DNA of 64,000 bases, taken from Candidatus Sericytochromatia bacterium. GTDB lineage: Bacteria; Cyanobacteriota; Sericytochromatia; UBA7694. Under the pieces are notes generated by a model, which worked only from the letters and a program-made list of their open reading frames with translations, had not been told where the DNA came from and did no database searches. Location of the stretch: assembly GCA_963797915.1 (NCBI GenBank), contig CAWCRG010000017.1, positions 107,074 through 171,073 on the forward strand, written 5' to 3'. Positions 11,473 through 60,408 of the stretch are shown in pieces (positions within the stretch are counted from its first letter, which is position 1; each line of letters starts with the position of its first letter). Position numbers and translations under genes: made by a program.

Positions 11473-11507
11473 GGCTTTCCTTTACTGCAGGGATTAGGCT
11501 AGAATAC

Positions 11508-12890: not shown

Positions 12891-12908
12891 GGAATTGAGA
12901 GCCTTTTC

Positions 12909-14309: not shown

Positions 14310-14393
14310 AGTTATCTGAAATCATGTTTTAACAGAACTTTTCACCCCATTTTAATTTCTAAGCAAACGCTTTCAGTACTTATTTATATAATT

Positions 14394-21481: not shown

Positions 21482-22423
21482 ATGCTGACTTCTCCGACCC
21501 CCTGGATCTTGTTTCTATTAGGGACCATTATTGGCAGTTTTCTGAATGTCGTTATTTATCGTACCCCTGTCATCCTATTGGCAGGTTGGAACGATGAAGA
21601 CGATGACGCAGAAGAAGTACTGGAAATTCCAGAAGCTTTTGGACCCCGTCTGGGGTTTACGCTTCGCTACTTTTTTTCAGATGTGCTGTACTCTTTTTCT
21701 TATTTGCTCAAGGACTTTTGGGTGGAGATCTATCAGGTGCTGAAGGGTCTGTCTTTTCCAGGCTCTCGCTGTGGTCAATGTCAGCGAGATATTGCCTGGT
21801 ATGATAATCTTCCCGTTTTGAGCTGGTTTATTTTAAGAGGGCGTTGCCGGCATTGTCATACAAGCTACAGTTTTCGCTATCCGCTTATTGAGTTTCTGAC
21901 GGGACTGCTCTTCGTTTATACCTATAGTTTGTATCCCCAACCTCTAGACTTAATGTTCTGGATTCCGTTGGTGAGCTTGTTATGGGCTATTTTTTGGATT
22001 GACCTTGATACCGAGTTTGTCTTCAATGTGATGACATACCCAAGTATTTTGCTGGGGATCCTATATAATGGGTCTAAAGTTAATTTGGGCTGGGCCTTAA
22101 TGGGTGGTCTGATTGCCTGGTGTTTCTTTGAAGGTGTTGCACTTTTGAGTGTTTTCCTCCTTAAGAAACAAGGGATGGGAGGCGGCGACGTTAAACTCGC
22201 GATTCTCATGGGCATCTGGTTAGGTCCTGAACAATTACTGGTGGCATTGGCGATAGCCTTTGTGACTGGGAGCATCGTGGGGGTAACTCTGATGTTAAAA
22301 CAAGGCGAAAGCAAACCTTTTCCCTTTGGTCCCTTTCTGGTGGTAGGTATGTTACTTTCCATGGCGGTTGGGGAACAACTGTGGGCGTGGTATATTGGTA
22401 AGTCAGTTTTGTCACCGGTATGA
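21482..22423 (+). CDS. pilD: Type IV prepilin peptidase / N-methyltransferase (A24 family)
   Basis: CGQC...CRHC zinc-binding tetracysteine, the GGGDVKL catalytic Asp motif and multiple TM segments. Contains an unusual ~60 aa acidic insert (NDEDDDAEEVLE...) after TM1. Confidence 0.8.
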   Translation: MLTSPTPWILFLLGTIIGSFLNVVIYRTPVILLAGWNDEDDDAEEVLEIPEAFGPRLGFTLRYFFSDVLYSFSYLLKDFWVEIYQVLKGLSFPGSRCGQCQRDIAWYDNLPVLSWFILRGRCRHCHTSYSFRYPLIEFLTGLLFVYTYSLYPQPLDLMFWIPLVSLLWAIFWIDLDTEFVFNVMTYPSILLGILYNGSKVNLGWALMGGLIAWCFFEGVALLSVFLLKKQGMGGGDVKLAILMGIWLGPEQLLVALAIAFVTGSIVGVTLMLKQGESKPFPFGPFLVVGMLLSMAVGEQLWAWYIGKSVLSPV

Positions 22424-22460
22424 ACTATAAAGCAAAGCAAGAGGCTTTAAAGAAGAAAAA

Positions 22461-23621
22461 ATGAACTTATTTGGTCGTGAAATAAACACGAAGAGCTTCC
22501 TTCGCTCTTTCTCCAGCCGTTTTTCTAAAGAACCCCCCATTGGTATTGATATTACCAATGAGTTCATTATTGCCGCTGAGCTTGCTGAAGTGCAAAATCA
22601 ACCGGGTCAATATGAAATCATTCGTCTGGCTCTCACAGAGACGCCTGAAGGCGCTGTTCGCGACGGAGAAGTGGTGGACAGCCTCCGCGTGGCGGAAGCC
22701 CTAAAAAACTTTTTAGATGAACATCAGTTTAAATCCCGTCGGGTCATCACCGCGGTATCAGGTCAAGCGGCGATTATTCGCCCCCGCATTAAGTTTCCTG
22801 CCATTCCGATTAAGGAATTACAGGAAGTGGTTATGCATGACGCAGAGCGCTATATCCCTTTCCCTATTCAGGATGTATATATTGACTTCCAGGTGACCGG
22901 TACCGTTGAAGAAGACAATATGACAAAGTATGATGTGCTGTTGGTGACCGCACAAAAACAGCTCATTGACACCTATATCGAGACCTTTGCCCAGGCAGAG
23001 CTTACGCTTGTGGCCGTAGATGTGGCTTCTTTCGCTGTTATGCGTGCTATCGAAGAGCAATTGTCTCAAGAAGAGGGCGAAGAACAGCAGCTTAATGTTT
23101 TGATTCTGATCCGAGGAGAAACCACTGATCTTAACGTCGTGCAAAATGGTGCGCCCCTTTTCTCTCGGAGTATTCCCTTGGGTAGTAGCACCATGATTGA
23201 AACCATCGCTGCAGGCATGGGGCTTGAACTTCAAGAGGCTGTGGCGCTTTTTGATAAGCTGGTTATTCCTGTGGTGGGCGATGAAACCTTTGAAGATCCC
23301 ATGGTCGAGCGCGCTGCTGATGAGATTCGTATGTTATTACAGGAGCTGACGGGTGAGATTAATAAATCTATTGACTACTTTCATCAATCGCAACAAGAAT
23401 ATATGCGTATTCAGCAGCTGATTCTTTCAGATCGTGGTGCCAAAATTAAAAACCTTGACCAGTACTTTGCCCATAAGCTGGGCATGGATGTCGAAATTAG
23501 TAACCCGATTCGCTCACTCTCATTTGATGAGACCGTTTTTTCAGCGGCTTATCTTAATGAAAATGCGCCTCTGTTTGCTACTGCGATTGGACTTGCACGG
23601 AGAGGAATTGAAGAAAATTGA
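22461..23621 (+). CDS. pilM: Type IV pilus assembly protein PilM (actin-like ATPase fold)
   Basis: 386 aa with the PilM-like pattern (IGIDI..., acidic central region). First gene of the pilMNOPQ cluster. Confidence 0.8.
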   Translation: MNLFGREINTKSFLRSFSSRFSKEPPIGIDITNEFIIAAELAEVQNQPGQYEIIRLALTETPEGAVRDGEVVDSLRVAEALKNFLDEHQFKSRRVITAVSGQAAIIRPRIKFPAIPIKELQEVVMHDAERYIPFPIQDVYIDFQVTGTVEEDNMTKYDVLLVTAQKQLIDTYIETFAQAELTLVAVDVASFAVMRAIEEQLSQEEGEEQQLNVLILIRGETTDLNVVQNGAPLFSRSIPLGSSTMIETIAAGMGLELQEAVALFDKLVIPVVGDETFEDPMVERAADEIRMLLQELTGEINKSIDYFHQSQQEYMRIQQLILSDRGAKIKNLDQYFAHKLGMDVEISNPIRSLSFDETVFSAAYLNENAPLFATAIGLARRGIEEN

Positions 23622-24178
23622 CACGCATTAGCATTAACCTTCTCGGCATTGACCGAAAGGAAGCACTTCAGCGCTCAGGCCTTAACATTGATAAAGGGCT
23701 AGCGATTGCTATGACCTCTATCATTATTGCGCTCCTGCTTCTTTTTGGGTCCAACGCCCTCATGAGCAGCCAGCTGGCTGCCGCTGAAGAGCTTAAAGAA
23801 GAAAACACATTAAAAATAGCAGCTCTCGATAAACAAATTGAAGAGATTAAAAGTCTCGAAAAAGAAAAAGCGGATAAAGAGATGGAGGAGAAAATCCTTC
23901 GTTACGTGACCGGAGAAACCTATCGCTGGTCTTATTTACTCCAAGAAGTCCGTTTGCTCATGCCCGTTGATATTAAAATTGATCAGTTATCCTTTAATCC
24001 CCAGGGTGAGTTCTCTTTGCAGGGCTCAGCCACCGATCACCGTTCAGTAGCGATGTTCCTGGCAAACCTTAAAAACTCGAAGATGCTGCAAAACATTCAG
24101 TTGCAAAGCAGCGAAAAACCTTCTGCAGAGGAACCAACTGTGTTTAGCATTACGTGCAAATTGAAAGTGGGAAGCTAA
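23618..24178 (+). CDS. pilN: Type IV pilus assembly protein PilN
   Basis: N-terminal INLLG motif, a single TM and a coiled coil. Overlaps the pilM stop. Confidence 0.7.
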   Translation: MTRISINLLGIDRKEALQRSGLNIDKGLAIAMTSIIIALLLLFGSNALMSSQLAAAEELKEENTLKIAALDKQIEEIKSLEKEKADKEMEEKILRYVTGETYRWSYLLQEVRLLMPVDIKIDQLSFNPQGEFSLQGSATDHRSVAMFLANLKNSKMLQNIQLQSSEKPSAEEPTVFSITCKLKVGS

Positions 24179-24181
24179 GTT

Positions 24182-24835
24182 ATGCCAACTATCGAAGCTT
24201 TCGGCCGTTCCTTTAATACCGACAATATTACGACCTTTCACAAGGTTTTAATTGGCGGAGTTACAGCTGCCCTGATTGTTTTTGGGGGAGGCTATCAAAT
24301 GGTCTATCCCAAGTGGGAAAACCTGCAAGTCCTTAACGAAGAAACAGAGCAACAGCAAAGCGATATCGAAAAAAAGCAAATTCAGGTAAAAAATCTGGAT
24401 AAACTTAAAGAAGAGTTGAAGGTTGTTCAGGCCAGTCTGGTGGCGCTGCGTCGTAAGATCCCAACAACGGCCAATGAGTCTCCACTGCTTTTAGATGTCG
24501 AAGAAATTACAGAAAATAAAGCGTTGTACGGTAACTCTGCGGTTTTGAACACCTTTAAGCCTGGCGGAATTGTTGACTTTACTTTGCCTGCTGAGTTACA
24601 GAGTGCTTCTGAATCTCCTGCTGCAAAGCAACTCAAGCAATTACCCGTACAGATTCAATTGAGCAAGGTGTCTTATCCTGAATTGATTGAGATGCTACAA
24701 GATCTTGAAAACTATGAACGAACGTTGAGCATTGAAGGCTTAACGATCGAACCCCAAAATGATCCCCAGGCCTTGTATACACCGGTCAATGTTTCTTTCA
24801 CATTGAAGGCCTTTTTGATAGAAGGAGCAAGTTAA
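24182..24835 (+). CDS. pilO: Type IV pilus assembly protein PilO
   Basis: TM helix, coiled coil and C-terminal periplasmic domain. Position in the cluster supports the call. Confidence 0.65.
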   Translation: MPTIEAFGRSFNTDNITTFHKVLIGGVTAALIVFGGGYQMVYPKWENLQVLNEETEQQQSDIEKKQIQVKNLDKLKEELKVVQASLVALRRKIPTTANESPLLLDVEEITENKALYGNSAVLNTFKPGGIVDFTLPAELQSASESPAAKQLKQLPVQIQLSKVSYPELIEMLQDLENYERTLSIEGLTIEPQNDPQALYTPVNVSFTLKAFLIEGAS

Positions 24836-25563
24836 TGTTAGGACACGCTTTAATCCTATCAAGTATGTGTGTCGCAGCGACAGGTCTCTTACTTTACTCA
24901 TTAAGCTTACCGCCTGAAGATTTAGGTAATGACCCAACAGTTATTGTGGTTGCGACGCCGGAGCCGGTTGTCACCGCCTCGGGCACCCCTGATACTGGTG
25001 AGTCTCCTGATGCTACAGTGGTTGCTGTCGCATCAGCTACGCCTGCCCCAACACCCACTCCCACCCCAAAGCCCACGGTAGATCCTTTAACGTCTTATAA
25101 TATTGCCGCGAGTACGCCTCAGGCCGTGCTTAGACAAGCCCAGGTGCATGCCGGGCGGGTGGATCCTTTTAAGTCTGTTCAGCCCCCTGATCTGCCCGAT
25201 TTTGAACCGGCTATTTCAGCGAATCAGCTGGCCTTACCCGCTGCGTTTCCGATGGTTAAGTCCGATAAACCCGTGAATACCGTCCCCTCTCGCACACCTA
25301 ATATTATAGAAACACAACCGACGCCTCCACCGGCAAAACCCCTGACACATGGGCTTTCCTTAAAAGGTATTATGGATGGAGGAATCGATCCGATTGCGAT
25401 TATTGAAATCAATGGTCGCACAGAGCTCTTTCGTGTGGGCGAACGCCTGCCCAATAATATTCGCGTCACTTCAATTAACTATGAAGAACGACGTGTGACT
25501 TTGTCTCGTGGCCAGGCTACGGGAACCCTTTATCTTCCCGAACCAAATAGCCCTAATTTTTAG
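24835..25563 (+). CDS. pilP: PilP-like pilus assembly lipoprotein with a Pro/Thr-rich linker
   Basis: Hydrophobic N-terminus, PT-rich low-complexity segment and a C-terminal beta domain (IIEINGRTELFRVGERL...VTSINYEERRVTL). Confidence 0.55.
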   Translation: MLGHALILSSMCVAATGLLLYSLSLPPEDLGNDPTVIVVATPEPVVTASGTPDTGESPDATVVAVASATPAPTPTPTPKPTVDPLTSYNIAASTPQAVLRQAQVHAGRVDPFKSVQPPDLPDFEPAISANQLALPAAFPMVKSDKPVNTVPSRTPNIIETQPTPPPAKPLTHGLSLKGIMDGGIDPIAIIEINGRTELFRVGERLPNNIRVTSINYEERRVTLSRGQATGTLYLPEPNSPNF

Positions 25564-25575
25564 GAGGAAAGACAT

Positions 25576-27174
25576 ATGAAAATTTCTACATTTAAACGTA
25601 AAAGCACAACTGCTCTTGCCACTTTAACCTTGCTAACGACCATGACTTCCACGGCATGGGCCGATAACAGACAGGTCGTTAATCCTCCTGTAGCAGGTGC
25701 TACTGACGCATTAACGATTCGTAAAGCCTTTCGTTTAGAAAAAGACCCCCTGATTAGCATTGTGCAACGCAATGCGAATGTGGAGTTTATTTTACGGGGA
25801 CTGGCGCAAAAAGCGGGCTTGAACCTGGTTTTTATGGCTGGTGATAACGCTGCTGCGACAGCGCAAGCTGCCTCCCTGGCACCCGCTTCATCGGGTGGAG
25901 ATGACGCTGCGTTAATGGAGTTAGCAGCGCTTGCGGGTAATACAAACGCCGCTTCTTCAGGAGCCGCTCCCAGTGCTATGGTTGCAAAAATGACCATTCC
26001 CTATCTGGAGTTGCGAGACATTCCATTGAGCGAAGCCTTTTCGCTTATTCTGCAAATGAGTGGGTTGAGCGGACGTCGGGTGTATAATTCGCTTATTATT
26101 ACAACGCCAGCAAAAATGGATCAAATGGGCTTTGCTTCCCCGCTCATTAAAACCTACACGATTTATAACCAGGCAGCGACGCTTGCTGTACAGAGTGGTG
26201 CCGCTGGTGGTGCTGGTGGCTGGTAGCTGCTGGTGGTGCTGGTGGCGGAGCGTGGTGGTGCTGGTGGTGCTGGTGGTGGCGTTATGTCGCCCATTGTGCA
26301 ACAACTCCAGGCTGTTTTTAGACGCCGTGGTTTGAACCCTGCGCCTGAGCTATTGATTGACCAGCGTACGGCAACCCTGATTGTGATCGGGAGCCAGGAA
26401 GCAATCGATATTGCTGATCAGCTGGTTCCTATACTTGACCGTGCTTTGCCTCAGGTGAATGTAGAAGTGAAAATGATTGAGCTTACCCAACGGGCAAGCC
26501 AGGAACTTGGCTTGAGTTATGAAATTGGGCAGGGGCAGACCGCTGCCGCCTTTAACAACAGCGCGATTTTACCGGGCCAGGCGCCGAATCCTCCTGCCGC
26601 TGAGGGTGAGTCACTCGTCAGCTTTAGCACCCTTAATCGCTTGGCCCCCAACTTTAGTGCGCGCTTGAACGCGTTGATTCGAGACAGTCAGGCCAGAGTG
26701 TTGACCAGTCCACGCTTGACGATTCAGCACGGAGTTCAGGCGATCTTTGACTCTACCACAGCGTTTCCTATTATTAGCACCACAGCTACAGCCACTGCGG
26801 CTACGCAGACGGTTCAGAGTATCAATATTGGTGAAAAACTGACGATTACGCCTTTTGTTGATTTGGAAAAAGGCTTGATTACGATGAAGCTGGTGCCTGA
26901 AATTTCTACCCGCGGTGAGTTGGTAAGTGCCGGTGGCCAGACCATTCCCGAAGTCAACAATCGCAAAGTTGATACGATTTTGACTGTTGAAGACGGTGAG
27001 TCGGTGGTCATTGGCGGACTGATGCGCAAAACGGATACCGAAGTCAAAAACAAGATTCCTTTATTGGGCGATATTCCTTTACTGGGCGCATTGTTTTCTG
27101 ATACGGTAACCAGCAAAGAAGATGTTGAAATTCTAATTATGGTTACTCCCCGTATTTTAAAGAGTGGCCGGTAA
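25576..27174 (+). CDS. pilQ: Type IV pilus secretin PilQ, interrupted by an in-frame TAG (26224..26226) inside a Gly/Ala (GGTGCT)n microsatellite
   Basis: ORF 25576..26226 has the signal peptide and N-terminal secretin/STN-type domains. ORF 26233..27174 is in the same frame and holds the secretin_N plus C-terminal secretin domain (IPLLGDIPLLGALF). A 19-nt direct repeat flanks the stop, with the second copy in a shifted frame. Confidence 0.8.
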
Positions 27175-33884: not shown

Positions 33885-34685
33885 TCAAAAGTACGCTGTA
33901 AAACCGAGATTAACACCATGAAACATATCTTGTAACGTGCGATTCAGGGTTAAAGACTGCCCTGTTTGAGAGTTTTGTGCCGCGGTTTCTCCGGCCGCAT
34001 TAAAAAAGTTGAAACGGTAACCGGCGTTAAAAGCCAGTGATGGGTTGATAAACCAGCGCGTGTTAAACTCGCTCAGCAGACCCAGTCCGTCGGGGAGCGG
34101 ATTGGGGGTGCGAGAGCTGGGCACATAAACCAACTTAAAACTGGCTTCTCCGATATCGAAAATGGGATGTTTACCTTCCAGGCCAATTCCGGCACCAAAA
34201 AAAGGGGCCGCCGTGGTTAGTAGCAAACTATCATAAACGGTATTGAAATAAGAAACATAATGCCCTGAAACCGTGAGCGTACGGCTAAAACTCTCATCGT
34301 GCAATACCGTGAGTTTAGCGAACTGAAAGTCCATCATATAGGTCATCAGACGCACATCTTGTATCAGTTGGTCGGCGTAATCAAGGGAGAATCCCAACCC
34401 AAAGACGGAGCCTAAAAACCCCAGTCCCTGAGGCGTTAAAATGCCAAACCAGTGGTCACTGGTAATGTTGAGCAGCCCCAGAGAGGTTTTGGTATTGACA
34501 AAAGAGTCGACACCACTGCCTTTAAAGTTTTGGTCAATGCTGTTATTGCCATACCAGTAGCGCAGGGTAAACTGTCCTTGATATTCTCGATTGCCAAAGT
34601 CCACCCGTGTTTCGGGGAGTTCGGCACCGTGCGCAGGTAAGCTCAGTAAGCACAAACCAAGCAAAAGACTCAAACATTTAGGCAT
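33885..34685 (-). CDS. Outer-membrane beta-barrel protein
   Basis: Signal peptide (LLSLPAHG), alternating amphipathic strands and a C-terminal aromatic residue (…FTAYF). Confidence 0.55.
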   Translation of the reverse strand: MPKCLSLLLGLCLLSLPAHGAELPETRVDFGNREYQGQFTLRYWYGNNSIDQNFKGSGVDSFVNTKTSLGLLNITSDHWFGILTPQGLGFLGSVFGLGFSLDYADQLIQDVRLMTYMMDFQFAKLTVLHDESFSRTLTVSGHYVSYFNTVYDSLLLTTAAPFFGAGIGLEGKHPIFDIGEASFKLVYVPSSRTPNPLPDGLGLLSEFNTRWFINPSLAFNAGYRFNFFNAAGETAAQNSQTGQSLTLNRTLQDMFHGVNLGFTAYF

Positions 34686-34709
34686 TAAAAACTTCCTTTA
34701 AATTGCAGA

Positions 34710-36968
34710 TTACTCAACGACCTCAAAGGGAATATGGGTGACGCGAGAAAGATCGGACCAGACGGCCTGATATCCTGGGTGAGCAGAAACATTATTGCTT
34801 TTGTTAACCACGGGTTTGAGACCTTTTAATGCGGAGACTGCGAGTACATAAGTTTCCTGCTCTTTTAAACGCAGTTTACGAGAGGTAAAAGGATAATCGA
34901 TCTGTGTCGATTTGGTCCACCCCTCCCAGATGACCTTACGCCCGGCATTGTTGCCTTCGGTGAGCGTCACATGATAAATTTCAGCGCCTGAGACGGCGTC
35001 CCAGGCCATGGTTGGCGTGGCGGGAATGGTGTTGTCACTCTCTCCCTGAATTTCGAGTTTACTCATGACGGGTAAAAAGTCTACACTCAGGCTATCAGCG
35101 GCGTCTGCTAGATTGTAGATGTGATGGTAGGTGAGTCCACCATCAACGTGGGTCGCGGTAAATTGCAGGTGATACTTTTGTCCACCGGAAAGTACAGGGA
35201 GGTTAACCCGAAAGCTTTGCGGCTCTTTGCTTCCCTTTTTACTCTCTGTTGCCGTTGAAGGGGAGGGAGTTGGAGAAGGTGTGCTCTTCTGATTGCCCTT
35301 GCTAATCAAGCTTTTGTCAGCAGTGGGGGGGGCGGTAAAGGTTTTGGTCAACAAATAGGCCTCTTCGGGGTGGGCGCCTTTTTCTTCAGGCTCAAGACTG
35401 ATGTACACATCCATAGACTTTAAAGTGTAGCCCTCAGGAACTTGCACCTTACCGCTCAGGACCATATTCTCTAGGACAGAGCGCAGGGAGATCACGGGTG
35501 CTATTTTAATGGCTTCGCTTTCGTCTTCTTTTTCACCGGTAAAAAAGTTTTTTACGGTATCAAAAACGTTAGTGCCCTTCTTTTCTTCGACAGCCTCCTG
35601 ATTCTCCTCGATGGTTTGAGGGTTTTCTGATGCTGCTGAAGGGGTGGGATACGGTTCTATCGGCGGAGAAATAATTGGGCTTTCAATCGTCTCTGGTGTA
35701 CTGCTCGCATAAGGAGAAACGTCTTTGTCGATCGCAGGACTTTCGGTTGCTGCGGGGCTTTCTGCTTCCGCAGGGCCTGGCGTTGCTTCGCTGAGTATTT
35801 TGTTGACGTTCTCAATGAGCTCTTCGGCAGTGGGTTTGGGGGTGCCGTCAGGACCCGGCAGCGTGCTGGGCTTCTCTTTGAAGACCAGTTCCTGGTCTTT
35901 AATACTTTTGTTGTTGACAATAATGTTTTTGAGTAAACCCATTTGTCGGATATCACCGTCGGGGTTTTGCACAAAGGCCACAAAACTTCTCCGTCCAAAA
36001 GGCACAGCCGGCAGCTTAAACTCGCCCAGGCTATTGCTGGTAGCCGGTATGCCAATGGCTGAGCCCATCGGAAAAGAAGAGCTAACCAGGGCGTCGGCAA
36101 TGGGGGTGTCGGTGGGAGATAGAACACTGCCGACAATATCCATCATTTGATCGTTATTTAGCGGTACCAACGGAATTTCTAAGCGGTTGGGGTCCACATC
36201 GGTCAGGGTAATACTGCGATAACCGGGTGCTGAAACGCTAATGGTATGCTTGCCTTCGGGCACGTCATTAATAAAGAATTTGCCACGGTTATTGCTGTTG
36301 GTTTCAAAAAGATTCAAGGTGCTGTTTGCCGCCGCATTCACGGGCGTTACGGCCTGAGACCCGACATAGCGAGTCAGTACTTCTGTGGGTGCTGCTCCCA
36401 GAGTGCTCACGCCTGAGTTATCGGGCTGCACAGCATCAGAGCCGCCAGGTATACCCGTCCCAGGAAGACCAGGGCCCACCGGTGCTGAGCCCGGCGGTGT
36501 GCTGGTGGCATTCGGAAGGGTGGGGATACTGCCGTTTACAGAAAAACCGGTGGATGGGCTGGCTGAGGGGGCTGTGATTGAAGGCTGTGCTGAGGGCGCT
36601 TTGACGGCTGTAGGCACTGCGTTGGGAAAAGGCGTTGAGCTGCTATTGGGATTGCTACTGGGGGGAGATGGGTTGTTTTGGCCTGTGTTGTTCGGCGGTG
36701 TGGCCGATGCAGCGGGTGCCGGCTCGGCCTGTATTTTAAGCGTGATTTCGGCATTATCAACGGGCTCCAGCGTGTATCCGTTAATTACCGTTCCTGTAAA
36801 ACGCTGCGTTTTAAGGGTGCTGGCCTGGGCTGAGGGCTTGGCCGCGAGGTTCGGAATATTACCGGCGGCGGGATTGGGTGAGCTGCTGTTAGAGCTTCCA
36901 CAAGCTGTTAAAAACAGGCTGCTGGCGAGTAAATACAACACCACAGAATGACGTACGGTTGCTTTCAT
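34710..36968 (-). CDS. Large secreted lipoprotein with carboxypeptidase-regulatory-like (Ig/transthyretin-like) domains and long Pro/Ser/Thr/Ala-rich low-complexity regions
   Basis: The likely start is the internal Met (MKATVRHSVVLYLLASSLFLTACGSS, lipobox). Repeated motifs of the type GTVINGYTLEPVDNAEITL and GKFFINDVPEGKHTISVSAPGY. Confidence 0.6.
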   Translation of the reverse strand: MKATVRHSVVLYLLASSLFLTACGSSNSSSPNPAAGNIPNLAAKPSAQASTLKTQRFTGTVINGYTLEPVDNAEITLKIQAEPAPAASATPPNNTGQNNPSPPSSNPNSSSTPFPNAVPTAVKAPSAQPSITAPSASPSTGFSVNGSIPTLPNATSTPPGSAPVGPGLPGTGIPGGSDAVQPDNSGVSTLGAAPTEVLTRYVGSQAVTPVNAAANSTLNLFETNSNNRGKFFINDVPEGKHTISVSAPGYRSITLTDVDPNRLEIPLVPLNNDQMMDIVGSVLSPTDTPIADALVSSSFPMGSAIGIPATSNSLGEFKLPAVPFGRRSFVAFVQNPDGDIRQMGLLKNIIVNNKSIKDQELVFKEKPSTLPGPDGTPKPTAEELIENVNKILSEATPGPAEAESPAATESPAIDKDVSPYASSTPETIESPIISPPIEPYPTPSAASENPQTIEENQEAVEEKKGTNVFDTVKNFFTGEKEDESEAIKIAPVISLRSVLENMVLSGKVQVPEGYTLKSMDVYISLEPEEKGAHPEEAYLLTKTFTAPPTADKSLISKGNQKSTPSPTPSPSTATESKKGSKEPQSFRVNLPVLSGGQKYHLQFTATHVDGGLTYHHIYNLADAADSLSVDFLPVMSKLEIQGESDNTIPATPTMAWDAVSGAEIYHVTLTEGNNAGRKVIWEGWTKSTQIDYPFTSRKLRLKEQETYVLAVSALKGLKPVVNKSNNVSAHPGYQAVWSDLSRVTHIPFEVVE

Positions 36969-37073
36969 GGAGATACTTTCCCAAAAATTTTTGGTATTAT
37001 ACCAGATTCCTTGGAAGCGAAGCACTGGCGCGACTTCGTGTTAAAATCTAAAGCATAAGGAGACGCCTATTTC

Positions 37074-38990
37074 ATGACACAATCTTCAGCTCCCCCCGAT
37101 TTAAACCGTATTGGTGATTTGCTCGTAAAAGAAGGGCTTCTTACCCCGGATGCTTTACAAAAAGCCTTAAAGTATCAAAAGGACTCTGAGGGGTATAAAC
37201 CCCTCGGACGGGTTTGTGTCGATCTTAAGCTACTCTCTAAAGTCGATTTGCAACGCTTTTTGCGTAAACATCAAAAAAGTATTCACCTGGGAGATATCCT
37301 CTTGAATATGGGTTTGATTACCCATGAGCAGTTGAATCATGTTCTCGAACAGCAAAAAGTCACCCAATTGCGCTTTGGAGACTTGCTCGTTAGACACAAC
37401 GTGATTTCTGAGTCGCAATTGGTGGAGGCTTTAAGCTTACAGCTTGATTTGCCCCGTATTGTGCCCTCTCCGGAATTGGTTGACCGCGAACTATTGAAAG
37501 CCCTCGATGAAGGCTTTTTGAGATCTTATGAGTGCTTGCCGATCCATAAATACGAAAATCAAATGGTGGTGGTCATGTCGGACCCGCTCAACGGGGAGCT
37601 GATCCAGCGTTTGATCGATGTGTTTAAATGTAAAATTATGCCGTCTATTGCTACGCCCACAGAGATTTTGGCCTGTATCAGTGCGTTATTTGATGCCGAG
37701 TCCACCCGTTTGAACAATTTAAACATGGACCATGACTTACTGCAGGTGACCCACCAACATCATCTGAGTGAAGAAAAACTCATGCCCGTGGCTCAGTTTT
37801 TGGTGCGTTCTGCTGTAGAGGCTGGAGCCACGGCGCTGCATGTGGAGACCCATGAAAATTATGTGCGTGTTCGCTATCGTATTGACGGTGTCTTGCAGCA
37901 TAAAACCGATCTTCCTCAGCGCATGGCCCCCATGCTCATTCAGTGTATGAAAACACCGTTTCGCTTAAAACGTCAGCGGTATTGGGAAGAACATATCACC
38001 ACGCAAGTGGGAACGAAGAAAGTGAATTTGTCGATCTCCTTTTTTCCAGGCATCTGGGGCGAAAGCCTTGTGATGCATATTTCTCATCCCAAAGCAAATT
38101 TTATTGGTTTAGAATATCTGGGCTTGTCTCCCTTTGTGCAAGGGCAGTTGAATAGAGGCTTGTCTCGTGCCGGTGGCTTAATGATTGCCGTCAGCCCCAT
38201 TCGTAACGGCAAGACCACCCTGCTCTATTCTTGGTTGGCTCACGTGGGGAAAGCGCATCACAATACCCTAACCCTCGAAGATAATATTGAGCATCAGTTG
38301 CCTGGCACAACCCAGTACCAATACCCTCCTAACTCCACCGACAGTTATGAATCCATGATCGAAGCGATGATTGATTATGACTCTGATGTCATGATGGTGA
38401 GTGCCGTTAAAAATAAAGAAGTGGCGTTGCGCTTGAATCGCGCTGCATTGGTGGGCAAAAAAGTTTTTTCTTCGGTGGCCTCAAACGATACAACGACAGC
38501 CATTTATCAGCTCATGGAGATGGAGGCCAATGCGCTATTGGCAACTCCAGCGCCGGTCATGCTGGTGGCGCAGAAGCTTTTGCGTAAACTCTGCGAGCAT
38601 TGCCGTGAGGCGGTTCCTCTGGCGGCTGTTCAATTGCAGAAACTGGGCGTGACGCTAAAGCAGACAGAAAAGCGTTCGGTATATGAGGCGCGCGGGTGCG
38701 AAGCGTGTGAGCACCTGGGATACTCAGGAATGACAGCTCTACATGAAGTGTTTGAAATCTCTGAAGCCGATCGCCAGGTGATTTTGAAAGGCGGAACCGC
38801 CTCTGCGATTCGAGAACAGGCACGCCAGCACCGGCGTCTGATGTCAATGGTTGAAGACGGTGTTTATAAATCATTGATTGGTTTGACTAGCCTCGAAGAG
38901 GTATTGAATACCGTGCTGATTTATGAGGAAGATCTTAACACCCCGCGCAATGTGGAAGACATTTATTATTTGTGTAACGGTGAGGCTTAA
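37074..38990 (+). CDS. Catalytically degenerate GspE/MshE-family pseudo-ATPase with two tandem MshEN-type c-di-GMP-binding modules, a GspE_N domain and the C-terminal Cys4 zinc site
   Basis: Four copies of the 24-residue MshEN motif RLGxxLLxxGLLxxxxLxxxLxxQ (for example RIGDLLVKEGLLTPDALQKALKYQ). Walker A is degraded (SPIRNGKT vs GPTGSGKST), Walker B GEIRD is replaced by SAVKN, and both His-box histidines are lost (VGKKVFSSVASN). The CxxC...CxxC zinc site is retained. Confidence 0.7.
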   Translation: MTQSSAPPDLNRIGDLLVKEGLLTPDALQKALKYQKDSEGYKPLGRVCVDLKLLSKVDLQRFLRKHQKSIHLGDILLNMGLITHEQLNHVLEQQKVTQLRFGDLLVRHNVISESQLVEALSLQLDLPRIVPSPELVDRELLKALDEGFLRSYECLPIHKYENQMVVVMSDPLNGELIQRLIDVFKCKIMPSIATPTEILACISALFDAESTRLNNLNMDHDLLQVTHQHHLSEEKLMPVAQFLVRSAVEAGATALHVETHENYVRVRYRIDGVLQHKTDLPQRMAPMLIQCMKTPFRLKRQRYWEEHITTQVGTKKVNLSISFFPGIWGESLVMHISHPKANFIGLEYLGLSPFVQGQLNRGLSRAGGLMIAVSPIRNGKTTLLYSWLAHVGKAHHNTLTLEDNIEHQLPGTTQYQYPPNSTDSYESMIEAMIDYDSDVMMVSAVKNKEVALRLNRAALVGKKVFSSVASNDTTTAIYQLMEMEANALLATPAPVMLVAQKLLRKLCEHCREAVPLAAVQLQKLGVTLKQTEKRSVYEARGCEACEHLGYSGMTALHEVFEISEADRQVILKGGTASAIREQARQHRRLMSMVEDGVYKSLIGLTSLEEVLNTVLIYEEDLNTPRNVEDIYYLCNGEA

Positions 38991-38992
38991 GG

Positions 38993-41347
38993 TTAATCGG
39001 GCTTCACTTTAGAAAGGGCCTCTTCAAGGGAGGTTAGGCCTTCTTTAACCTTGCCCATGGCATCCCAGTAGAGGGTAATCATGCCCTCTGCAACGGCCAT
39101 CTTTTTAAGGGCTTCAGCCGAAATACCTGGCTGTGTGATGGCGTTGCGAATGCTCTCATTGGGCACCAGTAGCTCATGAATGCCTGTCCGACCGCGGTAA
39201 CCCGTGTCATTGCAGGCCTTACACCCCTCTGCCTTATAAAGCGTTAACGGCGTACCGTTGGTGTGTCCCAATTGATTCATTTCTAGCTCGCCAGCCTCAT
39301 AGGGTGATTTGCATTCTGTACATAAGCGGCGTATCAGGCGTTGGGCACAAATCATGAGTACGGAAGGGCTAATCATAAAGGGAGAAATGCCCATTTCAAT
39401 AAATCGCGTCAGGGTAGAAGCTGCATCATTGGTATGCAGCGTAGATAAAAGCAGATGACCCGTAAGGGCTGCCTCGACGGCAATATGTGCGGTTTCGTGA
39501 TCTCGAATTTCTCCCACGAGGATCACGTCGGGATCCTGGCGAAGGTAAGCGCGTAAGGCGCGGGCAAACGTGAGTCCAATTTCGGGCTGGACCTGGAGCT
39601 GGTTAATATTAGGCAGGGTGTACTCAATGGGATCTTCAGCGGTTTGAATATTAATGTGGGGTTGATTAATTTCATTGAGGGCTGAATACAGCGTCATTGA
39701 CTTACCTGAGCCGGTGGGTCCCACATGTAAAATCATACCGTAGGGGCTTTGCAATAGCTCGCGATAACGCTTTAGGTTATAGTCTGAAAAACCAAGTGAT
39801 GACAGCGGTAGCATGCTTTTTTGCTTGTCTAAAATACGCATGACCACTTTTTCGCCATAGTTCATGGGGGCTGTCGAAATACGCAGGTCAAAGTCTAAGC
39901 CTTTGCGATTAAACTGTTTATAGACAATGCGACCATCCTGGGGCAAGCGCCGCTCCGCAATATTGAGCTGTGCCATGATTTTTAAACGGGCCGAGAGGGG
40001 CTGGATCAAACTGGCCGGTGTGAGCTGATGATAGTCTTTTAAGATCCCGTCTACGCGGTAACGCACCCTCACGTTGTGCTCCCGGCTCTCAATATGAATA
40101 TCTGAGGCTTTTGCCTCATAAGCTTCCTCGATTAAACGATTCACTAAGCGAATCATGGGAGCGCTTGTGGGATCGTCTAAGCCGACGACTTCTTTCGCGC
40201 TGTTGCTATCGCTGACATACTGAGACTGCAACTCATCCATGAGATCTTCCATCTCATGCGCCTTTTGTTTGGGGGTCTTGGGTGCCGCGGGCACTGTTAC
40301 AGCTCCAGCTGCTGCGGGCGTTTGTTGAAACAAGCGTTGTAAGACCGCTGGAATGGCAATGAACCGTGACGCTTTACGATAGTTAAGGAGGGTGTCCTGA
40401 ACTTCAATTTGAAAGGGATGAGCGAGGGCAAAGCTCAATTGGTTTTTGTCGTTATCAAAAGGAACCACGCTGTACTTACGACAAAAGGGCATGGGGAGAA
40501 CGCCGGGTCTAAGCTGTTGGGTTTCTACATCGGTTAAAAAAGGCAAGCCGGTATAGGTCGAGACCATTCCTGCGGTTTGGCTGGCGCTGACGCCGTGTAA
40601 AAGCAGTTGCTCGTAAACATTGTCTGGCTTGAGATCCTTGACGATTTCCTGAGGAAGACTTTCTTCTAGAAATTTGCAAAATCCGGCAAAACTTGCGCGA
40701 TCGGCCTGGGAGCTTGACTGCGTTTTTTGTGGGCTTTGGGGGACTAAGCTGAGTTCTTTGGCTGCGGGTACAAACAGGTTTTCGGCAACGGCTGCGGTTT
40801 GGGGCTGCGCGGCTGCAAAAGCCGGTAAAGGGGGAGTAGATACCTGGGGCGCTTTTTCAATCTGACTTTGTTCAGCAGTCTTTGCCAGGGGAGGCTCTGG
40901 TTTAGTAGGGGCTTTAGCAGGGGCTGAGGGTGTCTGAGCGACAAAATTGCTGCGCCACTGTTTTTCGACTTCCAGTGCCTTTTTGACTTGCTCACTCAAT
41001 ACCTCTAGCGTCAGTGGTTTATTTAAGAAACCCACGGCGCCCATTTGAAAAGCCTGTAGACGATTTTCAGCTTGTAAACTCGCGGTAATCATAATGATCG
41101 GAATCAGAGCCAGCCGAGGATCTGACTGTAGCTCTTCACACACCTCATAACCCGACATACCCGGCATCTCAATATCCAGTAAGATCAAGCGGGCTTCGAG
41201 ATGATGCTGGCGTAAAAGCTGCAGTGCTCTTTTGCCGTTATCTATCGCTTCTACGGTAAACCCGGAATGACTGAGCATGCTCTTGACGAGCGTGCTCATG
41301 TCCTTATCATCATCTATAACGAGAATATCTACGTTCTGCATATACAA
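38993..41347 (-). CDS. Response-regulator receiver (REC) domain fused to a GspE/PilB-type secretion/pilus assembly ATPase
   Basis: N-terminal REC with the phospho-acceptor context (LILLDIEMPGMSG). GspE_N domain. Intact Walker A (GPTGSGKS), Asp box, Walker B (VGEIRD), His box (TGHLLLSTLHTN) and Cys4 zinc site. Confidence 0.8.
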   Translation of the reverse strand: MYMQNVDILVIDDDKDMSTLVKSMLSHSGFTVEAIDNGKRALQLLRQHHLEARLILLDIEMPGMSGYEVCEELQSDPRLALIPIIMITASLQAENRLQAFQMGAVGFLNKPLTLEVLSEQVKKALEVEKQWRSNFVAQTPSAPAKAPTKPEPPLAKTAEQSQIEKAPQVSTPPLPAFAAAQPQTAAVAENLFVPAAKELSLVPQSPQKTQSSSQADRASFAGFCKFLEESLPQEIVKDLKPDNVYEQLLLHGVSASQTAGMVSTYTGLPFLTDVETQQLRPGVLPMPFCRKYSVVPFDNDKNQLSFALAHPFQIEVQDTLLNYRKASRFIAIPAVLQRLFQQTPAAAGAVTVPAAPKTPKQKAHEMEDLMDELQSQYVSDSNSAKEVVGLDDPTSAPMIRLVNRLIEEAYEAKASDIHIESREHNVRVRYRVDGILKDYHQLTPASLIQPLSARLKIMAQLNIAERRLPQDGRIVYKQFNRKGLDFDLRISTAPMNYGEKVVMRILDKQKSMLPLSSLGFSDYNLKRYRELLQSPYGMILHVGPTGSGKSMTLYSALNEINQPHINIQTAEDPIEYTLPNINQLQVQPEIGLTFARALRAYLRQDPDVILVGEIRDHETAHIAVEAALTGHLLLSTLHTNDAASTLTRFIEMGISPFMISPSVLMICAQRLIRRLCTECKSPYEAGELEMNQLGHTNGTPLTLYKAEGCKACNDTGYRGRTGIHELLVPNESIRNAITQPGISAEALKKMAVAEGMITLYWDAMGKVKEGLTSLEEALSKVKPD

Positions 41348-41370
41348 GCCTTTAGCACGAGTTAGGAGGT

Positions 41371-48150: not shown

Positions 48151-49188
48151 GTGACGGTTTTTAAAGACAAGCGCTTTTGTTCGGATGTTTTTCAATTTAT
48201 CAAACACCATGATTTGATCCTTCCGCAAAAGCGCTATCTTTTGGCCGTTTCTGGAGGTTTAGACTCCATGGTGCTGCTGCATTTTTTTCAGCGCTTTGCT
48301 CATAAACGTTATGGCTGTACTTTTGCCGTGGCTCATTTGGATCATGGCTTAAGGGCGGAGTCTTCTGCTCAGGCCCAGGCTCTTGCGGATTATTGTCAGC
48401 GCGAACAGATTTTGTTTTATAGTGAGCGACGGATACCGCTTCGATCGGTGACGCAAAGTTCCTTAGAGGCCCAGGCTCGCTCGGTGCGTTACGCCTGGTT
48501 GGCGCAACAGGCAAAAAACCACGGTTTTGATGGGGTGATAACGGCCCACCATGCCACGGATCAGCTAGAAACCAGCTCTGATGCAGTGGATACGTGGAAC
48601 TTCAGTACCTCAGGGAATGCGCCCACTGAAAAATCTTTTGGTGGATGGCTTTTCTTTAACCGTCACCCGTCCTTTCTTATCGGTTTCTCGGAGTGACTTA
48701 GCACACTATCATCAGCATTACATGCTGCCCTGCTGGGAAGATCATCGAATCAGGATCCCGCTTTTATGCGCAATCGTCTACGCGCTCAGGTACTGCCTTT
48801 ACTCATCGACGAAAACCCCAATCTGGAATCCACAATAGTGGAACATACTGTCGTTATTCAGCAGGAGCAGGACTATTTGCGAAATTGTATGCTCCAGCAT
48901 TACCCTGAATGCGTATCCGTGACAGACCCAGACACAGCGCAGGAAAACACGCTTGTTTTAAATCTGCCCCCCTTTGCTGAGCTTCATGGGGCGATTCAAC
49001 GCTTATTGCTAAAAGAAATGCTGACTCGGCTAAGTGCCGGAAGTTGGAAGGTATTTAGCGCCCGACATATTGAGGCCTTACAGCAGCTAAGCACGGCACA
49101 AAGCCACAAAACGCTGCATTTACCACTCAACGTGGTCGTTACTAAAGCGAGGCGACACCTCCTGTTTCAAAAAGTATGTTATCACTGA
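48151..49188 (+). CDS. tilS: tRNA(Ile)-lysidine synthetase, interrupted by two frameshifts (~48560-48600 and ~48735-48770)
   Basis: PP-loop SGGLDSMVL in ORF 48151..48696. The middle conserved block (RPFLSVSRSDLAHY...WEDHR) exists only in ORF 48581..48838, which is in another frame. The downstream block DPAFMRNRLRAQVLPLL lies in ORF 48766..49188. Confidence 0.7.
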
Positions 49189-60159: not shown

Positions 60160-60408
60160 ATGATTAAGTCTCTCAAAAAGCAACAGGGCGGTTTCACCCT
60201 GATTGAATTAATGGTTGTAATTGTTATTATTGGTATTCTGGTTGCCATCGCGCTTCCTAACTTTATTGGTGCTCAAGATCGCGCCAAAGTTGCCAGTGTT
60301 AAAGCAAATATGCACACCTTCCAAACTGCTCTTGAAACCTACGCAGTAGATTGGGGTGGTCAATATCCTGGTGACTTTGGCGCCGCCAGAAGCTCAAGCG
60401 ACAACTGA
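60160..60408 (+). CDS. pilA: Type IVa major pilin, a short Geobacter-type form (class III signal peptide G|FTLIELMVV...)
   Basis: KKQQGGFTLIELMVVIVIIGILVAIALPNF prepilin signature. 71-aa mature length ending ...TYAVDWGGQYPGDFGAARSSSDN, which parallels the truncated Geobacter PilA-N. Confidence 0.75.
   Translation: MIKSLKKQQGGFTLIELMVVIVIIGILVAIALPNFIGAQDRAKVASVKANMHTFQTALETYAVDWGGQYPGDFGAARSSSDN

What the first reader, a model, noticed from the sequence alone, without database searches (positions are those of the whole stretch)
38993..41347. REC-GspE fusion: a pilus/secretion ATPase with its own phospho-receiver domain
A full CheY-like receiver (conserved D-D-...-D-...-T-...-K pattern around LLDIEMPGMSG) is joined through a ~230-aa Pro/Ala/Gln-rich linker and a GspE_N domain to an intact hexameric ATPase core. 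Phosphorylation and c-di-GMP (through the neighbouring pseudo-ATPase) could jointly gate pilus extension. The two genes are convergent and separated by only 2 nt.
Basis: partly seen in the sequence, partly recalled or inferred. Interest (0 to 1): 0.5.

Follow-up and report, generated by a model that had tools for sequence, protein, structure and literature searches.

The report
Receiver-fused pilus ATPase with pseudo-ATPase partner
A bacterium related to the cyanobacteria encodes a pilus/secretion motor ATPase with a built-in two-component phospho-receiver, always next to a dead copy of the motor that keeps cyclic-di-GMP-binding motifs; the fusion is already catalogued but unstudied, and the pairing seems not to have been described.

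Summary
ORF 38993..41341(-) encodes a 782-aa protein with four parts:
- a complete receiver domain (REC)
- a GspE_N/MshEN-type N1 domain
- an intact PilB/GspE-type ATPase

The convergent neighbour, 2 nt away, is a conserved pseudo-ATPase. It carries two c-di-GMP-binding MshEN_N modules.

The fusion is not new. REC-MshEN-T2SSE was catalogued in 2016 (Geobacter Gmet_3473). I found at least 57 relatives in Sericytochromatia/Melainabacteria, Acidobacteriota, Planctomycetota and Deltaproteobacteria. They form one clade in an ATPase-core tree, and the phospho-acceptor residues are almost invariant. In other phyla, six of the seven relatives I examined sit beside hybrid kinase/Hpt genes, three of them next to or inside Che-type gene clusters. 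This supports real phospho-control.

This clade lacks the c-di-GMP motif. In the Sericytochromatia/Melainabacteria lineage the pseudo-ATPase partner supplies that motif. Six gene maps show the pair adjacent, and 11 matched pairs lie on shared contigs.

Most likely this is a response-regulator-type pilus extension (or T2SS-like) motor with a c-di-GMP-sensing regulatory paralogue. HMMs cannot tell PilB from GspE here. The window holds no kinase and no pilC or pilT. I could not check whether the rest of the genome has other PilB genes. I found no experimental study. Moderate interest.

The parts
38993..41341 (-). REC-N1-ATPase gene (782 aa plus stop codon): a response-regulator-type PilB/GspE-family ATPase
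   Evidence: ORF list and translation. ATG start at 41341. Identical to the public gene call P0001. Pfam finds REC, MshEN and T2SSE. AlphaFold2 mean pLDDT 84.
40943..41341 (-). Receiver (REC) domain, residues 1-133. The phospho-acceptor is D56 (codon 41174-41176). Other active-site and switch residues are D10/D11, T86, F105 and K108.
   Evidence: PF00072 E 7.5e-28. Active-site columns are conserved in 54-57 of 57 homologues. The model shows a (beta-alpha)5 fold with pLDDT above 90.
40706..40942 (-). Disordered Pro/Ala/Gln-rich tether, about residues 134-212
   Evidence: Column conservation 0.11-0.20 and 44-69% gaps; the segment between alignment columns of residues 125 and 262, which contains the tether, is 65-196 aa in the family. 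pLDDT is about 30 for residues 135-210.
40322..40705 (-). N1 domain (helical subdomain 213-264 plus MshEN_C/GspE_N fold 265-340). [quoted passage not shown]
   Evidence: PF05157 at 265-343. pLDDT above 90. No NF053729 hit at E<=1 once REC is removed. The regex motif is absent in 59/59 family members.
38996..40165 (-). N2 domain plus C-terminal ATPase core, residues 393-782. Walker A is at 541-548 (39698-39721), the Asp box at 569-574, Walker B with Glu611, the His box at 632-640, the Arg fingers at 464-471, and the zinc Cys residues at 674/677/707/710.
   Evidence: PF00437 E 1e-126. Motifs are invariant in 57 homologues. PDB sequence matches to PilF, PilB and GspE at E of about 1e-116.
37074..38990 (+). 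Convergent partner gene: a 638-aa pseudo-ATPase of the PilB/GspE family
   Evidence: PF05157 and PF00437. The motifs are degenerate: RRLPQDGR becomes RQRYWEEH, GPTGSGKS becomes SPIRNGKT, VGEIRD becomes VSAVKN, and LHTN becomes VASN. Similar losses recur in the orthologues from L001, L002 and L034 and across the 32-cluster clade.
37107..37442 (+). Two tandem MshEN_N c-di-GMP-binding modules in the partner. They comprise four 24-residue motifs, around residues 12-65 and 71-123.
   Evidence: NF053729 c-di-GMP_motif E 2.6e-30, 103.9 bits against a cut-off of 38, two stretches. The orthologues show the same. Regex copies start at residues 13, 44, 72 and 101.

Best explanation
The gene encodes a response regulator whose output domain is a PilB/GspE-type hexameric ATPase. 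The ATPase most likely powers a type IV pilus-like machine.

**Proposed mechanism (inferred)**
- A histidine-kinase/Hpt phosphorelay, encoded outside this window, phosphorylates Asp56 of the N-terminal receiver.
- The receiver is held on a flexible tether of about 80 residues. Its phosphorylation state then changes how the N1/N2-ATPase body assembles, docks on the platform (PilM/PilC-like) or turns over ATP.
- This would do in cis what separate CheY-like regulators (PilG/PilH, PatA-type PixG/PixE) do in trans to PilB in other bacteria.

**c-di-GMP input**
- This ATPase clade has lost the c-di-GMP-binding MshEN_N motif.
- In the Sericytochromatia/Melainabacteria lineage the adjacent, convergently transcribed paralogue has lost its catalytic residues but keeps two c-di-GMP-binding modules.
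- That paralogue probably acts as a c-di-GMP-sensing regulatory subunit or competitor of the active motor. Phosphorylation and c-di-GMP would then be integrated on one machine.

**Shown versus inferred**
- Shown here: domain anatomy, residue conservation, monophyly of the fusion clade, kinase/Che neighbourhoods in relatives, and conservation of the gene pair.
- Inferred: phosphorylation itself, c-di-GMP binding, physical interaction of the two proteins, and the identity of the machine.
For: **Anatomy and conservation**
- Domain hits and intact motifs. AlphaFold2 domain boundaries.
- The receiver active site is under selection in 57 homologues that share only 45-88% identity with the target.
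- The REC-bearing ATPases form one clade on the ATPase core: 49/50 NJ bootstraps, and 54 REC tips within a 56-tip clade.

**Kinase neighbourhoods in relatives**
- The gene lies next to hybrid HK-REC-Hpt or stand-alone Hpt genes in L003, L004, L005, L038 and L040, and between two hybrid HK-REC genes in L039. In L045 a PAS-HATPase_c (kinase-like) gene lies directly downstream.
- It lies within or at the edge of a CheW/CheR/CheA/CheB gene cluster in L039 and L040 (an MCP gene is also called in L039), and a CheR gene lies downstream in L004.

**The partner**
- Two c-di-GMP modules score above the curated cut-off.
- Catalytic degeneration runs throughout a 32-cluster clade at 41-93% identity, while the zinc Cys residues are retained in the four orthologues aligned.
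- The gene maps of the window, L001, L002, L034, L041 and L044 all show the pair adjacent and convergent. Flanking genes differ in L002 and L034.
- Eleven pairs share a contig or have adjacent locus tags.
- The c-di-GMP motif is absent in 59/59 REC-family and 60/60 sister-clade proteins but present in 32/32 partner-clade proteins.

**Machine context**
- The window also holds pilD, pilM, pilN, pilO, a PilP-like gene, a secretin and a prepilin gene. No T2SS-specific genes were found.
Against: - No histidine kinase, Hpt, second receiver, pilC, pilT or other T2SSE gene lies in the 64-kb window.
- The PilB and GspE equivalog HMMs score the same (535 and 532 bits) and both miss their cut-offs of 676 and 630.
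- None of the 14 relative loci examined (L001-L005, L034, L036, L038-L041, L044, L045 and the decayed copy in L007) places the gene beside platform or pilin-assembly genes. The one near exception is a Flp/TadE set in L034.
- The pilMNOPQ genes lie 12-17 kb away and are not shown to be linked to this ATPase.
- One subclade, with shorter linkers (L036, L045), has no partner gene next to it.
- A canonical pilB-pilT-pilC operon elsewhere in the genome cannot be excluded.
- No experiment on any member of this family was found.
Confidence: 0.6

Rival explanations
1. It is the ATPase of a type II secretion-like (or pilus-like protein-export) system rather than of a motility/adhesion pilus. The receiver would gate secretion. 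A separate canonical PilB would serve the pilMNOPQ machine.
For: The GspE model TIGR02533 aligns over its full length with the same score as the PilB model. Vibrio GspE structures are the best PDB sequence hits for the core, by a negligible margin (396 against 393 bits). The gene is never adjacent to pilC or pilT in the loci seen.
Against: No gspC/F/G-M genes were found in the window, and the only assembly genes present are of the PilM/N/O type. In the NJ tree the Vibrio GspE references do not group with the REC clade (7/50 bootstraps). In relatives the gene lies next to or inside Che-type gene clusters, a context typical of motility control.
Confidence: 0.2
2. The protein is mainly a signalling or localisation device. 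The receiver would serve as a phosphate sink or a polar-targeting module. The ATPase would act as a nucleotide-dependent switch, as proposed for M. xanthus PilB in exopolysaccharide control, and would not drive a filament.
For: The gene has an orphan position away from machine genes. It has a long flexible tether. In relatives it is embedded in multi-kinase/Che clusters that contain several other receivers. There is a precedent for PilB acting as a signalling protein (PMC5544727, listed).
Against: All catalytic, Arg-finger and zinc-motif residues are invariant across 57 homologues. This fits a working motor better than a switch. The receiver keeps every residue needed for phosphorylation and for the T/F switch.
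Confidence: 0.12
3. The neighbouring pseudo-ATPase is functionally unrelated, or is a decaying duplicate. Under this reading the adjacency is an accident of synteny.
For: The two genes are convergent and so not co-transcribed. Some REC-ATPase relatives lack the partner. Most of the paired loci also share wider synteny.
Against: The pair persists where the flanking genes differ (L002, L034). The partner keeps its full length and its c-di-GMP modules. Its identity to the window protein declines in step with that of the active ATPase (90/83, 74/72, 57/57, 52/52 and 48/52%). Its zinc Cys residues are retained in the four orthologues aligned. It has no frameshifts, although several other genes in this window are split.
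Confidence: 0.08

Closest known systems
REC-MshEN-T2SSE architecture (Geobacter metallireducens Gmet_3473), catalogued by Wang et al. 2016, Nat Commun, Supplementary Table 4 (PMC5013675)
   Same: The domain order is the same: receiver, then N1/MshEN region, then T2SSE ATPase. That paper reports it in beta-, gamma- and delta-proteobacteria. Deltaproteobacterial members also turn up in my family (L003, L004).
   Different: The table gives only an entry, with no reference and no experiment. The present protein comes from the Sericytochromatia lineage. It lacks the c-di-GMP motif. It is paired with a c-di-GMP-binding pseudo-ATPase, which the paper does not describe. I did not test whether Gmet_3473 belongs to the same clade.
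PilB/PilF type IVa pilus extension ATPases (G. metallireducens PilB 5tsg, T. thermophilus PilF 6f8l/5oiu, M. xanthus PilB 3jc8)
   Same: N1-N2-CTD layout, all catalytic motifs and the tetracysteine zinc site. Sequence matches reach E 1e-113 to 1e-121.
   Different: It falls below the TIGR02538 cut-off (535 bits against 676). It has an N-terminal receiver and no c-di-GMP motif. Its clade is separate from canonical PilB (P0234-P0242) in the NJ tree.
GspE/EpsE type II secretion ATPases (V. cholerae 1p9r, V. vulnificus 4pht)
   Same: Equal sequence similarity (392-396 bits on the core) and a full-length match to the GspE HMM.
   Different: It falls below the TIGR02533 cut-off (532 bits against 630). 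There are no gsp genes nearby. The Vibrio GspE references do not group with the REC clade.
CheY-like regulators acting in trans on PilB: P. aeruginosa PilG/PilH (Pil-Chp) and the cyanobacterial PatA-type PixG/PixE/LsiR
   Same: A receiver domain fed by a chemosensory or kinase pathway controls the extension motor. In relatives the fused gene lies next to or inside Che-type gene clusters. PatA-type regulators bind the N-terminal region of PilB1 (bioRxiv 10.1101/2021.06.11.447907).
   Different: Here the receiver is covalently fused to the motor and there is no PATAN domain. For PilG/PilH no direct interaction with PilB has been reported (PMC11656802).
MshE / MshEN c-di-GMP receptors (V. cholerae MshE, T. 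thermophilus PilF with several MshEN copies)
   Same: The partner protein carries tandem 24-residue RLGxxLVxxGLIxxxxLxxxLxxQ-type motifs ahead of an MshEN_C plus T2SSE body.
   Different: In MshE and PilF the sensor sits on an active ATPase. Here it sits on a catalytically degenerate paralogue, and the active ATPase next door has no sensor motif.
Two-motor or motor-inhibitor arrangements (Acinetobacter baylyi PilB/TfpB with the inhibitor CpiA); NtrC-type REC-AAA+ regulators as a mechanistic analogue
   Same: More than one PilB-family protein, or a dedicated protein modulator, acts on one pilus machine (cited in PMC11656802). Phosphorylation of a receiver controlling assembly of a ring ATPase is established for NtrC-type proteins (my own knowledge, not tested here).
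   Different: TfpB is an active motor and CpiA is unrelated to ATPases. NtrC uses an AAA+ ring and regulates transcription. None of these is a PilB-family pseudo-ATPase.

Membership tests
Response regulator receiver (CheY-like REC, PF00072) | HMM match above the curated cut-off and a (beta-alpha)5 fold | tested here: met
   97.4 bits against a cut-off of 30.2. The AlphaFold2 model shows five strand/helix pairs with pLDDT above 90.
Response regulator receiver (CheY-like REC, PF00072) | Acidic pocket (DD), phospho-acceptor Asp, and the Thr/Ser, aromatic and Lys switch residues | tested here: met
   D10, D11, D56, T86, F105 and K108 are present and conserved in 54-57 of 57 homologues.
Response regulator receiver (CheY-like REC, PF00072) | Actual phosphorylation by a cognate kinase or Hpt | not testable with these tools
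   No kinase lies in the window. Kinase/Hpt/Che genes lie next to relatives.
GspE/PilB-type secretion ATPase superfamily (T2SSE, PF00437) | Walker A, Asp box, atypical Walker B with catalytic Glu, His box and Arg fingers | tested here: met
   All are present and invariant in 57 homologues. PF00437 E 1e-126.
GspE/PilB-type secretion ATPase superfamily (T2SSE, PF00437) | Tetracysteine zinc motif, which separates the PilB/GspE subgroup from PilT | tested here: met
   C674, C677, C707 and C710 are conserved in 55-56 of 57.
Type IVa pilus assembly ATPase PilB (TIGR02538 equivalog) | Score at or above the curated equivalog cut-off (675.65 bits) | tested here: not met
   535-536 bits.
Type IVa pilus assembly ATPase PilB (TIGR02538 equivalog) | Genomic association with pilC, pilT or pilM and a role in pilus extension | tested here: inconclusive
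   pilD-pilMNOP-secretin lie 12-17 kb away and a prepilin gene about 19 kb away. There is no pilC or pilT in the window or next to relatives.
Type II secretion ATPase GspE (TIGR02533 equivalog) | Score at or above the curated equivalog cut-off (630.25 bits) | tested here: not met
   532-533 bits.
Type II secretion ATPase GspE (TIGR02533 equivalog) | Association with gspC/D/F/G-M genes | tested here: inconclusive
   None lie in the 64-kb window or in the relative loci examined. The rest of the genome was not available.
MshEN c-di-GMP receptor (NF053729, 53-residue double motif) - target protein | Tandem 24-residue RLGxx(L/V/I)(L/V/I)xxG(L/V/I)(L/V/I)xxxxLxxxLxxQ motifs | tested here: not met
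   No hit at E<=1 with the receiver removed. The regex is absent in 59/59 family members.
MshEN c-di-GMP receptor (NF053729) - partner protein 37074..38990 | Tandem 24-residue motifs scoring above the curated cut-off | tested here: met
   103.9 bits against a cut-off of 38, two stretches. Four motif copies start at residues 13, 44, 72 and 101. Orthologues score 96-98 bits. Binding itself was not tested.
REC-MshEN-T2SSE architecture (Wang et al. 2016, Suppl. Table 4) | Domain order REC, then MshEN/N1, then T2SSE in one polypeptide | tested here: met
   Pfam domain order.

The most novel reading that the evidence does not exclude
The receiver-fused active ATPase and the c-di-GMP-binding pseudo-ATPase assemble into one mixed ring, or alternate on one platform. 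The dead subunits lack Arg fingers and the catalytic Glu. They would act as c-di-GMP-controlled brakes or adaptors, while phosphorylation of the tethered receivers sets the activity of the live subunits. This would be the first heteromeric PilB-family motor with a dedicated pseudo-enzyme sensor subunit. It would also be natural 'Rosetta stone' evidence that CheY-like regulators act directly on the extension motor.
Probability: 0.15. Interest if true: 0.7.

Novelty: new variant of a known kind. Interest (0 to 1): 0.4.

Why it matters
How chemosensory and two-component signals reach the type IV pilus extension motor is still unresolved. A 2024 review notes that no PilG/PilH-PilB interaction has been reported (PMC11656802).

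This monophyletic family has the receiver covalently fused to the motor, and several members in other phyla lie next to or inside Che-type gene clusters. That argues the motor itself can be the direct target of phospho-signalling. It also offers a simpler system for biochemistry.

The Sericytochromatia/Melainabacteria pairing adds a second idea. c-di-GMP sensing can be moved to a catalytically dead paralogue of the motor. If that holds, the set of known PilB cofactors would grow. It would also say something about surface behaviour in the non-photosynthetic relatives of cyanobacteria, which remain largely uncultured.

The practical impact is limited. The organism is known only from metagenomes, and the architecture is already in the databases.

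Tried and rejected
1. **PilB versus GspE by HMM.** NCBIfam and PDB scores are equal within noise. An NJ tree only shows that the REC clade is separate from both the Vibrio GspE references and a set of canonical PilB-like proteins.
2. **Cognate kinase in the window.** A tblastn search with receiver, HK, hybrid-HK and Hpt queries found only the target's own receiver.
3. **Hidden c-di-GMP motif in the target.** None was found by HMM at E<=1 or by regex.
4. **Other PilB paralogues in the same genome.** The single genome-contig scan did not return the window's own genome, so this could not be checked. The cluster look-up gave no names or accessions.
5. **Promoter and terminator scan of 36.8-43.8 kb.** Counts were at the level of shuffled sequence and gave no information.
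6. **Literature.** Eight searches for a characterised receiver-fused PilB/GspE or a PilB-family pseudo-ATPase found only the 2016 catalogue entry.
7. **Context of the nearest non-REC sister (P0075) and of a second degenerate paralogue (P0180).** No machine genes lie nearby.
8. **The weak DUF4388/PATAN hit in the partner (E 8e-4, below cut-off).** I treated this as motif-level similarity, not as a domain.
Full report
**Observation**

The window has an ORF at 38993..41347 on the minus strand. The probable start is the ATG at 41341, two codons inside the listed TTG. It is preceded by AAAGG, and it agrees with the public gene call and with homologue N-termini.

The 782-aa product matches three Pfam families:
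- Response_reg at residues 6-119 (E 7.5e-28)
- MshEN at residues 265-343 (E 2e-9)
- T2SSE at residues 393-776 (E 1e-126)

The partner ORF 37074..38990(+) ends in TAA at 38990. The target's stop codon occupies 38993-38995.

**Anatomy**

I aligned 57 receiver-bearing homologues, which share 45-88% identity with the target. The receiver's key positions are conserved as follows:
- D10: acidic in 57/57
- D11: 54/57
- D56, the phospho-acceptor: 55/57
- T86: Thr or Ser in 57/57
- F105, the switch aromatic: Phe or Tyr in 56/57
- K108: 57/57

Walker A, the Asp box, Walker B with its catalytic Glu, the His box and the Arg fingers are essentially invariant. The four zinc cysteines are present in 55-56 of the 57.

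Column conservation and an AlphaFold2 model (mean pLDDT 84) give these boundaries:
- receiver, residues 1-133
- disordered tether, residues 135-210 (pLDDT about 30; the region varies greatly in length across the family)
- folded N1 domain, residues 213-340
- short disordered stretches at 342-354 and 377-388
- N2 plus C-terminal ATPase, residues 395-778

The '~230-aa linker' is therefore about 80 aa of true linker followed by a conserved N1 domain.

**The neighbour**

The 638-aa partner has MshEN (residues 124-210) and T2SSE (residues 235-611) domains. It also has two stretches of the NCBIfam c-di-GMP_motif model NF053729, scoring 103.9 bits against a cut-off of 38. These correspond to four 24-residue motif copies starting at residues 13, 44, 72 and 101. 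The published consensus is RLGxx(L/V/I)(L/V/I)xxG(L/V/I)(L/V/I)xxxxLxxxLxxQ (PMC5013675).

Its catalytic apparatus is gone:
- The Arg-finger block RRLPQDGR reads RQRYWEEH.
- Walker A reads SPIRNGKT.
- VGEIRD reads VSAVKN.
- The His-box His is Ala.

Three orthologues at 48-71% identity show the same kind of degeneration. So does a clade of 32 sequence clusters at 41-93% identity, although a minority keep the Walker B Gly-Glu or a His-box His. The zinc cysteines are retained in the four orthologues aligned, and the c-di-GMP modules are retained across the clade. This is a maintained pseudo-enzyme, not a decaying gene.

**Distribution and origin of the fusion**

Of the 120 best database clusters, 57 carry the receiver. 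Two further receiver-bearing proteins came from the cluster look-up, which gives the 59 used in the motif count below. The named clusters come from Candidatus Sericytochromatia, Melainabacteria, Blackallbacteria, Acidobacteriota and Planctomycetota. Genome loci add Deltaproteobacteria.

On the ATPase core alone, 54 receiver-bearing sequences fall in one NJ clade of 56 tips. That clade is recovered in 49/50 bootstraps. Its sister is a group of Opitutae-type PilB-like proteins, some of them GAF-fused, recovered in 50/50. Vibrio GspE references fall outside, joining the clade in only 7/50. The fusion therefore appears to have arisen once.

Neither this clade (0/59) nor its sister (0/60) has the c-di-GMP motif. 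All 32 partner-clade proteins have 2-4 copies. The target with its receiver removed gives no NF053729 hit at E<=1.

**Evidence that the receiver is used**

Outside the Sericytochromatia, the gene sits next to kinase and chemosensory genes:
- It is flanked by hybrid HK-REC-Hpt or stand-alone Hpt genes in L003, L004, L005, L038 and L040, and by two hybrid HK-REC genes in L039.
- It lies within or at the edge of a CheW/CheR/CheA/CheB gene cluster in L039 and L040, with an MCP gene also called in L039. A CheR gene lies downstream in L004.
- In L045, a subclade member without a partner has a PAS-HATPase_c (kinase-like) gene directly downstream.
- In the MAG that carries L001, a decayed second copy of the fusion lies directly upstream of a REC-HK and a PAS-HK-REC-REC-Hpt gene (L007).

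The window itself holds no kinase, no Hpt and no other receiver.

**Evidence that the pair is functional**

The convergent pair is adjacent in all of these loci:
- the window
- L001 (67% identity, 4-nt overlap)
- L002 (58%)
- L034, Blackallbacteria (52%, 39-nt overlap)
- L041 and L044, the JACYMC01 lineage (52-54%)

Flanking genes differ in L002 and L034.

Eleven receiver-ATPase/partner pairs share a contig length or have adjacent locus tags. One of these is a Melainabacteria pair, CVV27_06035 and CVV27_06040. Identities to the window decline in step for the two proteins. One Sericytochromatia-type subclade with shorter linkers (L036, L045) has no partner gene next to it.

**Which machine?**

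This remains open.
- PilB (TIGR02538) and GspE (TIGR02533) models score 535 and 532 bits, both under their cut-offs.
- PDB matches to PilF, PilB and GspE are equal within noise.
- The window contains pilD (21482-22423), pilM, pilN, pilO, a PilP-like gene and a secretin (22461-27174). It also contains a prepilin gene with a GFTLIE motif at 60160.
- I found no pilC, no pilT and no gsp-specific genes.

I favour a type IV pilus-like machine, but only weakly. The genome scan did not return this genome.

**Mechanism**

Most likely this is a response regulator whose output is the extension-type motor. Phosphorylation of D56 would alter the tethered receiver's contacts, and with them ring assembly, docking or turnover. 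The partner would be a c-di-GMP sensor that modulates or competes with the active motor.

The steps shown here are anatomy, conservation, neighbourhood and co-occurrence. Phosphorylation, ligand binding and interaction are inferred.

Residues conserved only in the fusion clade could mark a receiver docking surface. They include W129 (100%, at the receiver/tether junction), Y243, G280, P331, R732 and W759. This is speculation.

**Comparison with the literature**

REC-MshEN-T2SSE is listed as an architecture, with Gmet_3473 as the example, in Wang et al. 2016, Supplementary Table 4. The entry has no reference and no experiment, and no paper mentions that locus tag.

A 2024 review of PilB cofactors does not mention receiver-fused PilB. 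It states that no PilG/PilH-PilB interaction has been reported. In Synechocystis, PatA-type regulators bind the N-terminal part of PilB1 through their PATAN domain.

I found no description of a PilB-family pseudo-ATPase with c-di-GMP modules paired with an active paralogue.

**Verdict**

The fusion itself is a catalogued but uncharacterised architecture. Four findings here were not found in the literature I could search:
- the monophyly of the fusion clade
- its loss of the c-di-GMP motif
- its kinase/Che neighbourhoods in other phyla
- the conserved pseudo-ATPase partner in Sericytochromatia and Melainabacteria

I rate it a new variant of a known kind, with moderate interest (0.4).

Noticed in passing
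window 9723-10996; 25576-27174; 48151-49188; 60160-60598: Several genes appear split by frameshifts or stops. These are an amidohydrolase (two overlapping ORFs), the secretin (STN part and Secretin part as separate ORFs), TilS (181 + 140 aa, against an intact 345-aa gene in L041) and the prepilin gene (which continues in another frame). This suggests indel errors in the assembly, or pseudogenes. The target and its partner are intact.
   Followed up: partly
window 21482-27174: A type IV pilus assembly cluster lies here: prepilin peptidase PilD, PilM, PilN, PilO, a PilP/T2SSC-like protein and a short secretin. No pilB, pilC or pilT gene lies beside it. It is followed by an unknown ORF, an MlaE permease and an SLT transglycosylase.
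   Followed up: partly
window 60160-60598 (+): A short prepilin-like gene (MIKSLKKQQG|GFTLIELMVVIVIIGILVAIALPNF...) lies upstream of a large YfhO-like membrane protein (60880-63438). Its C-terminal part seems to continue in a different frame.
   Followed up: partly
L007 about 9870-11200, with 11235-16326: The Sericytochromatia MAG that carries L001 has a decayed second copy of the receiver-ATPase fusion, with frameshifts and most of the C-terminal domain deleted. It lies directly upstream of a REC-HisKA-HATPase kinase and a PAS-HK-REC-REC-Hpt hybrid kinase. Orthologues of these kinases are candidate partners for the intact protein.
   Followed up: partly
proteins P0155-P0157, P0172, P0180, P0183, P0186, P0189, P0197, P0199, P0205, P0209, P0212, P0213, P0219 and P0224; L043: A second, distinct family of degenerate PilB-like proteins exists (Walker A GPxxxGK[ST], most often GPARSGKT; MVSE-type Walker B; 'YPAF'-like sequence in place of the His box; 640-750 aa). 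It includes one from the same Sericytochromatia MAG lineage (JACYMC01). These organisms therefore carry several PilB-family pseudo-ATPases.
   Followed up: no
L034 4773-8138: In Candidatus Blackallbacteria the ATPase pair lies just downstream of Flp pilin, A24 peptidase, TadE, Tad and TadE genes. No TadA/CpaF, TadB/C or secretin gene lies within 10 kb.
   Followed up: no
window 33885-37025 (-): A 771-aa CarboxypepD_reg-domain protein and a 266-aa protein with no family match lie divergent from the partner gene. They keep this position in L001, L041 and L044. They may belong with the pair or may simply share synteny.
   Followed up: no
target residues 129, 243, 280, 331, 732, 759: These residues are conserved in at least 85% of receiver-fused ATPases but differ in non-fused relatives. 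W129, at the receiver/tether junction, is conserved in 100%. They may mark a clade-specific interaction surface.
   Followed up: no
window 41342-41370; L044 5599: Only about 29 nt separate the upstream nucleoside-transporter gene from the target's start. In L044 the two genes abut. The target may therefore be co-transcribed with nupC/terC/tatD downstream of the rplKAJL genes, and this order is conserved in L037, L041 and L044.
   Followed up: partly
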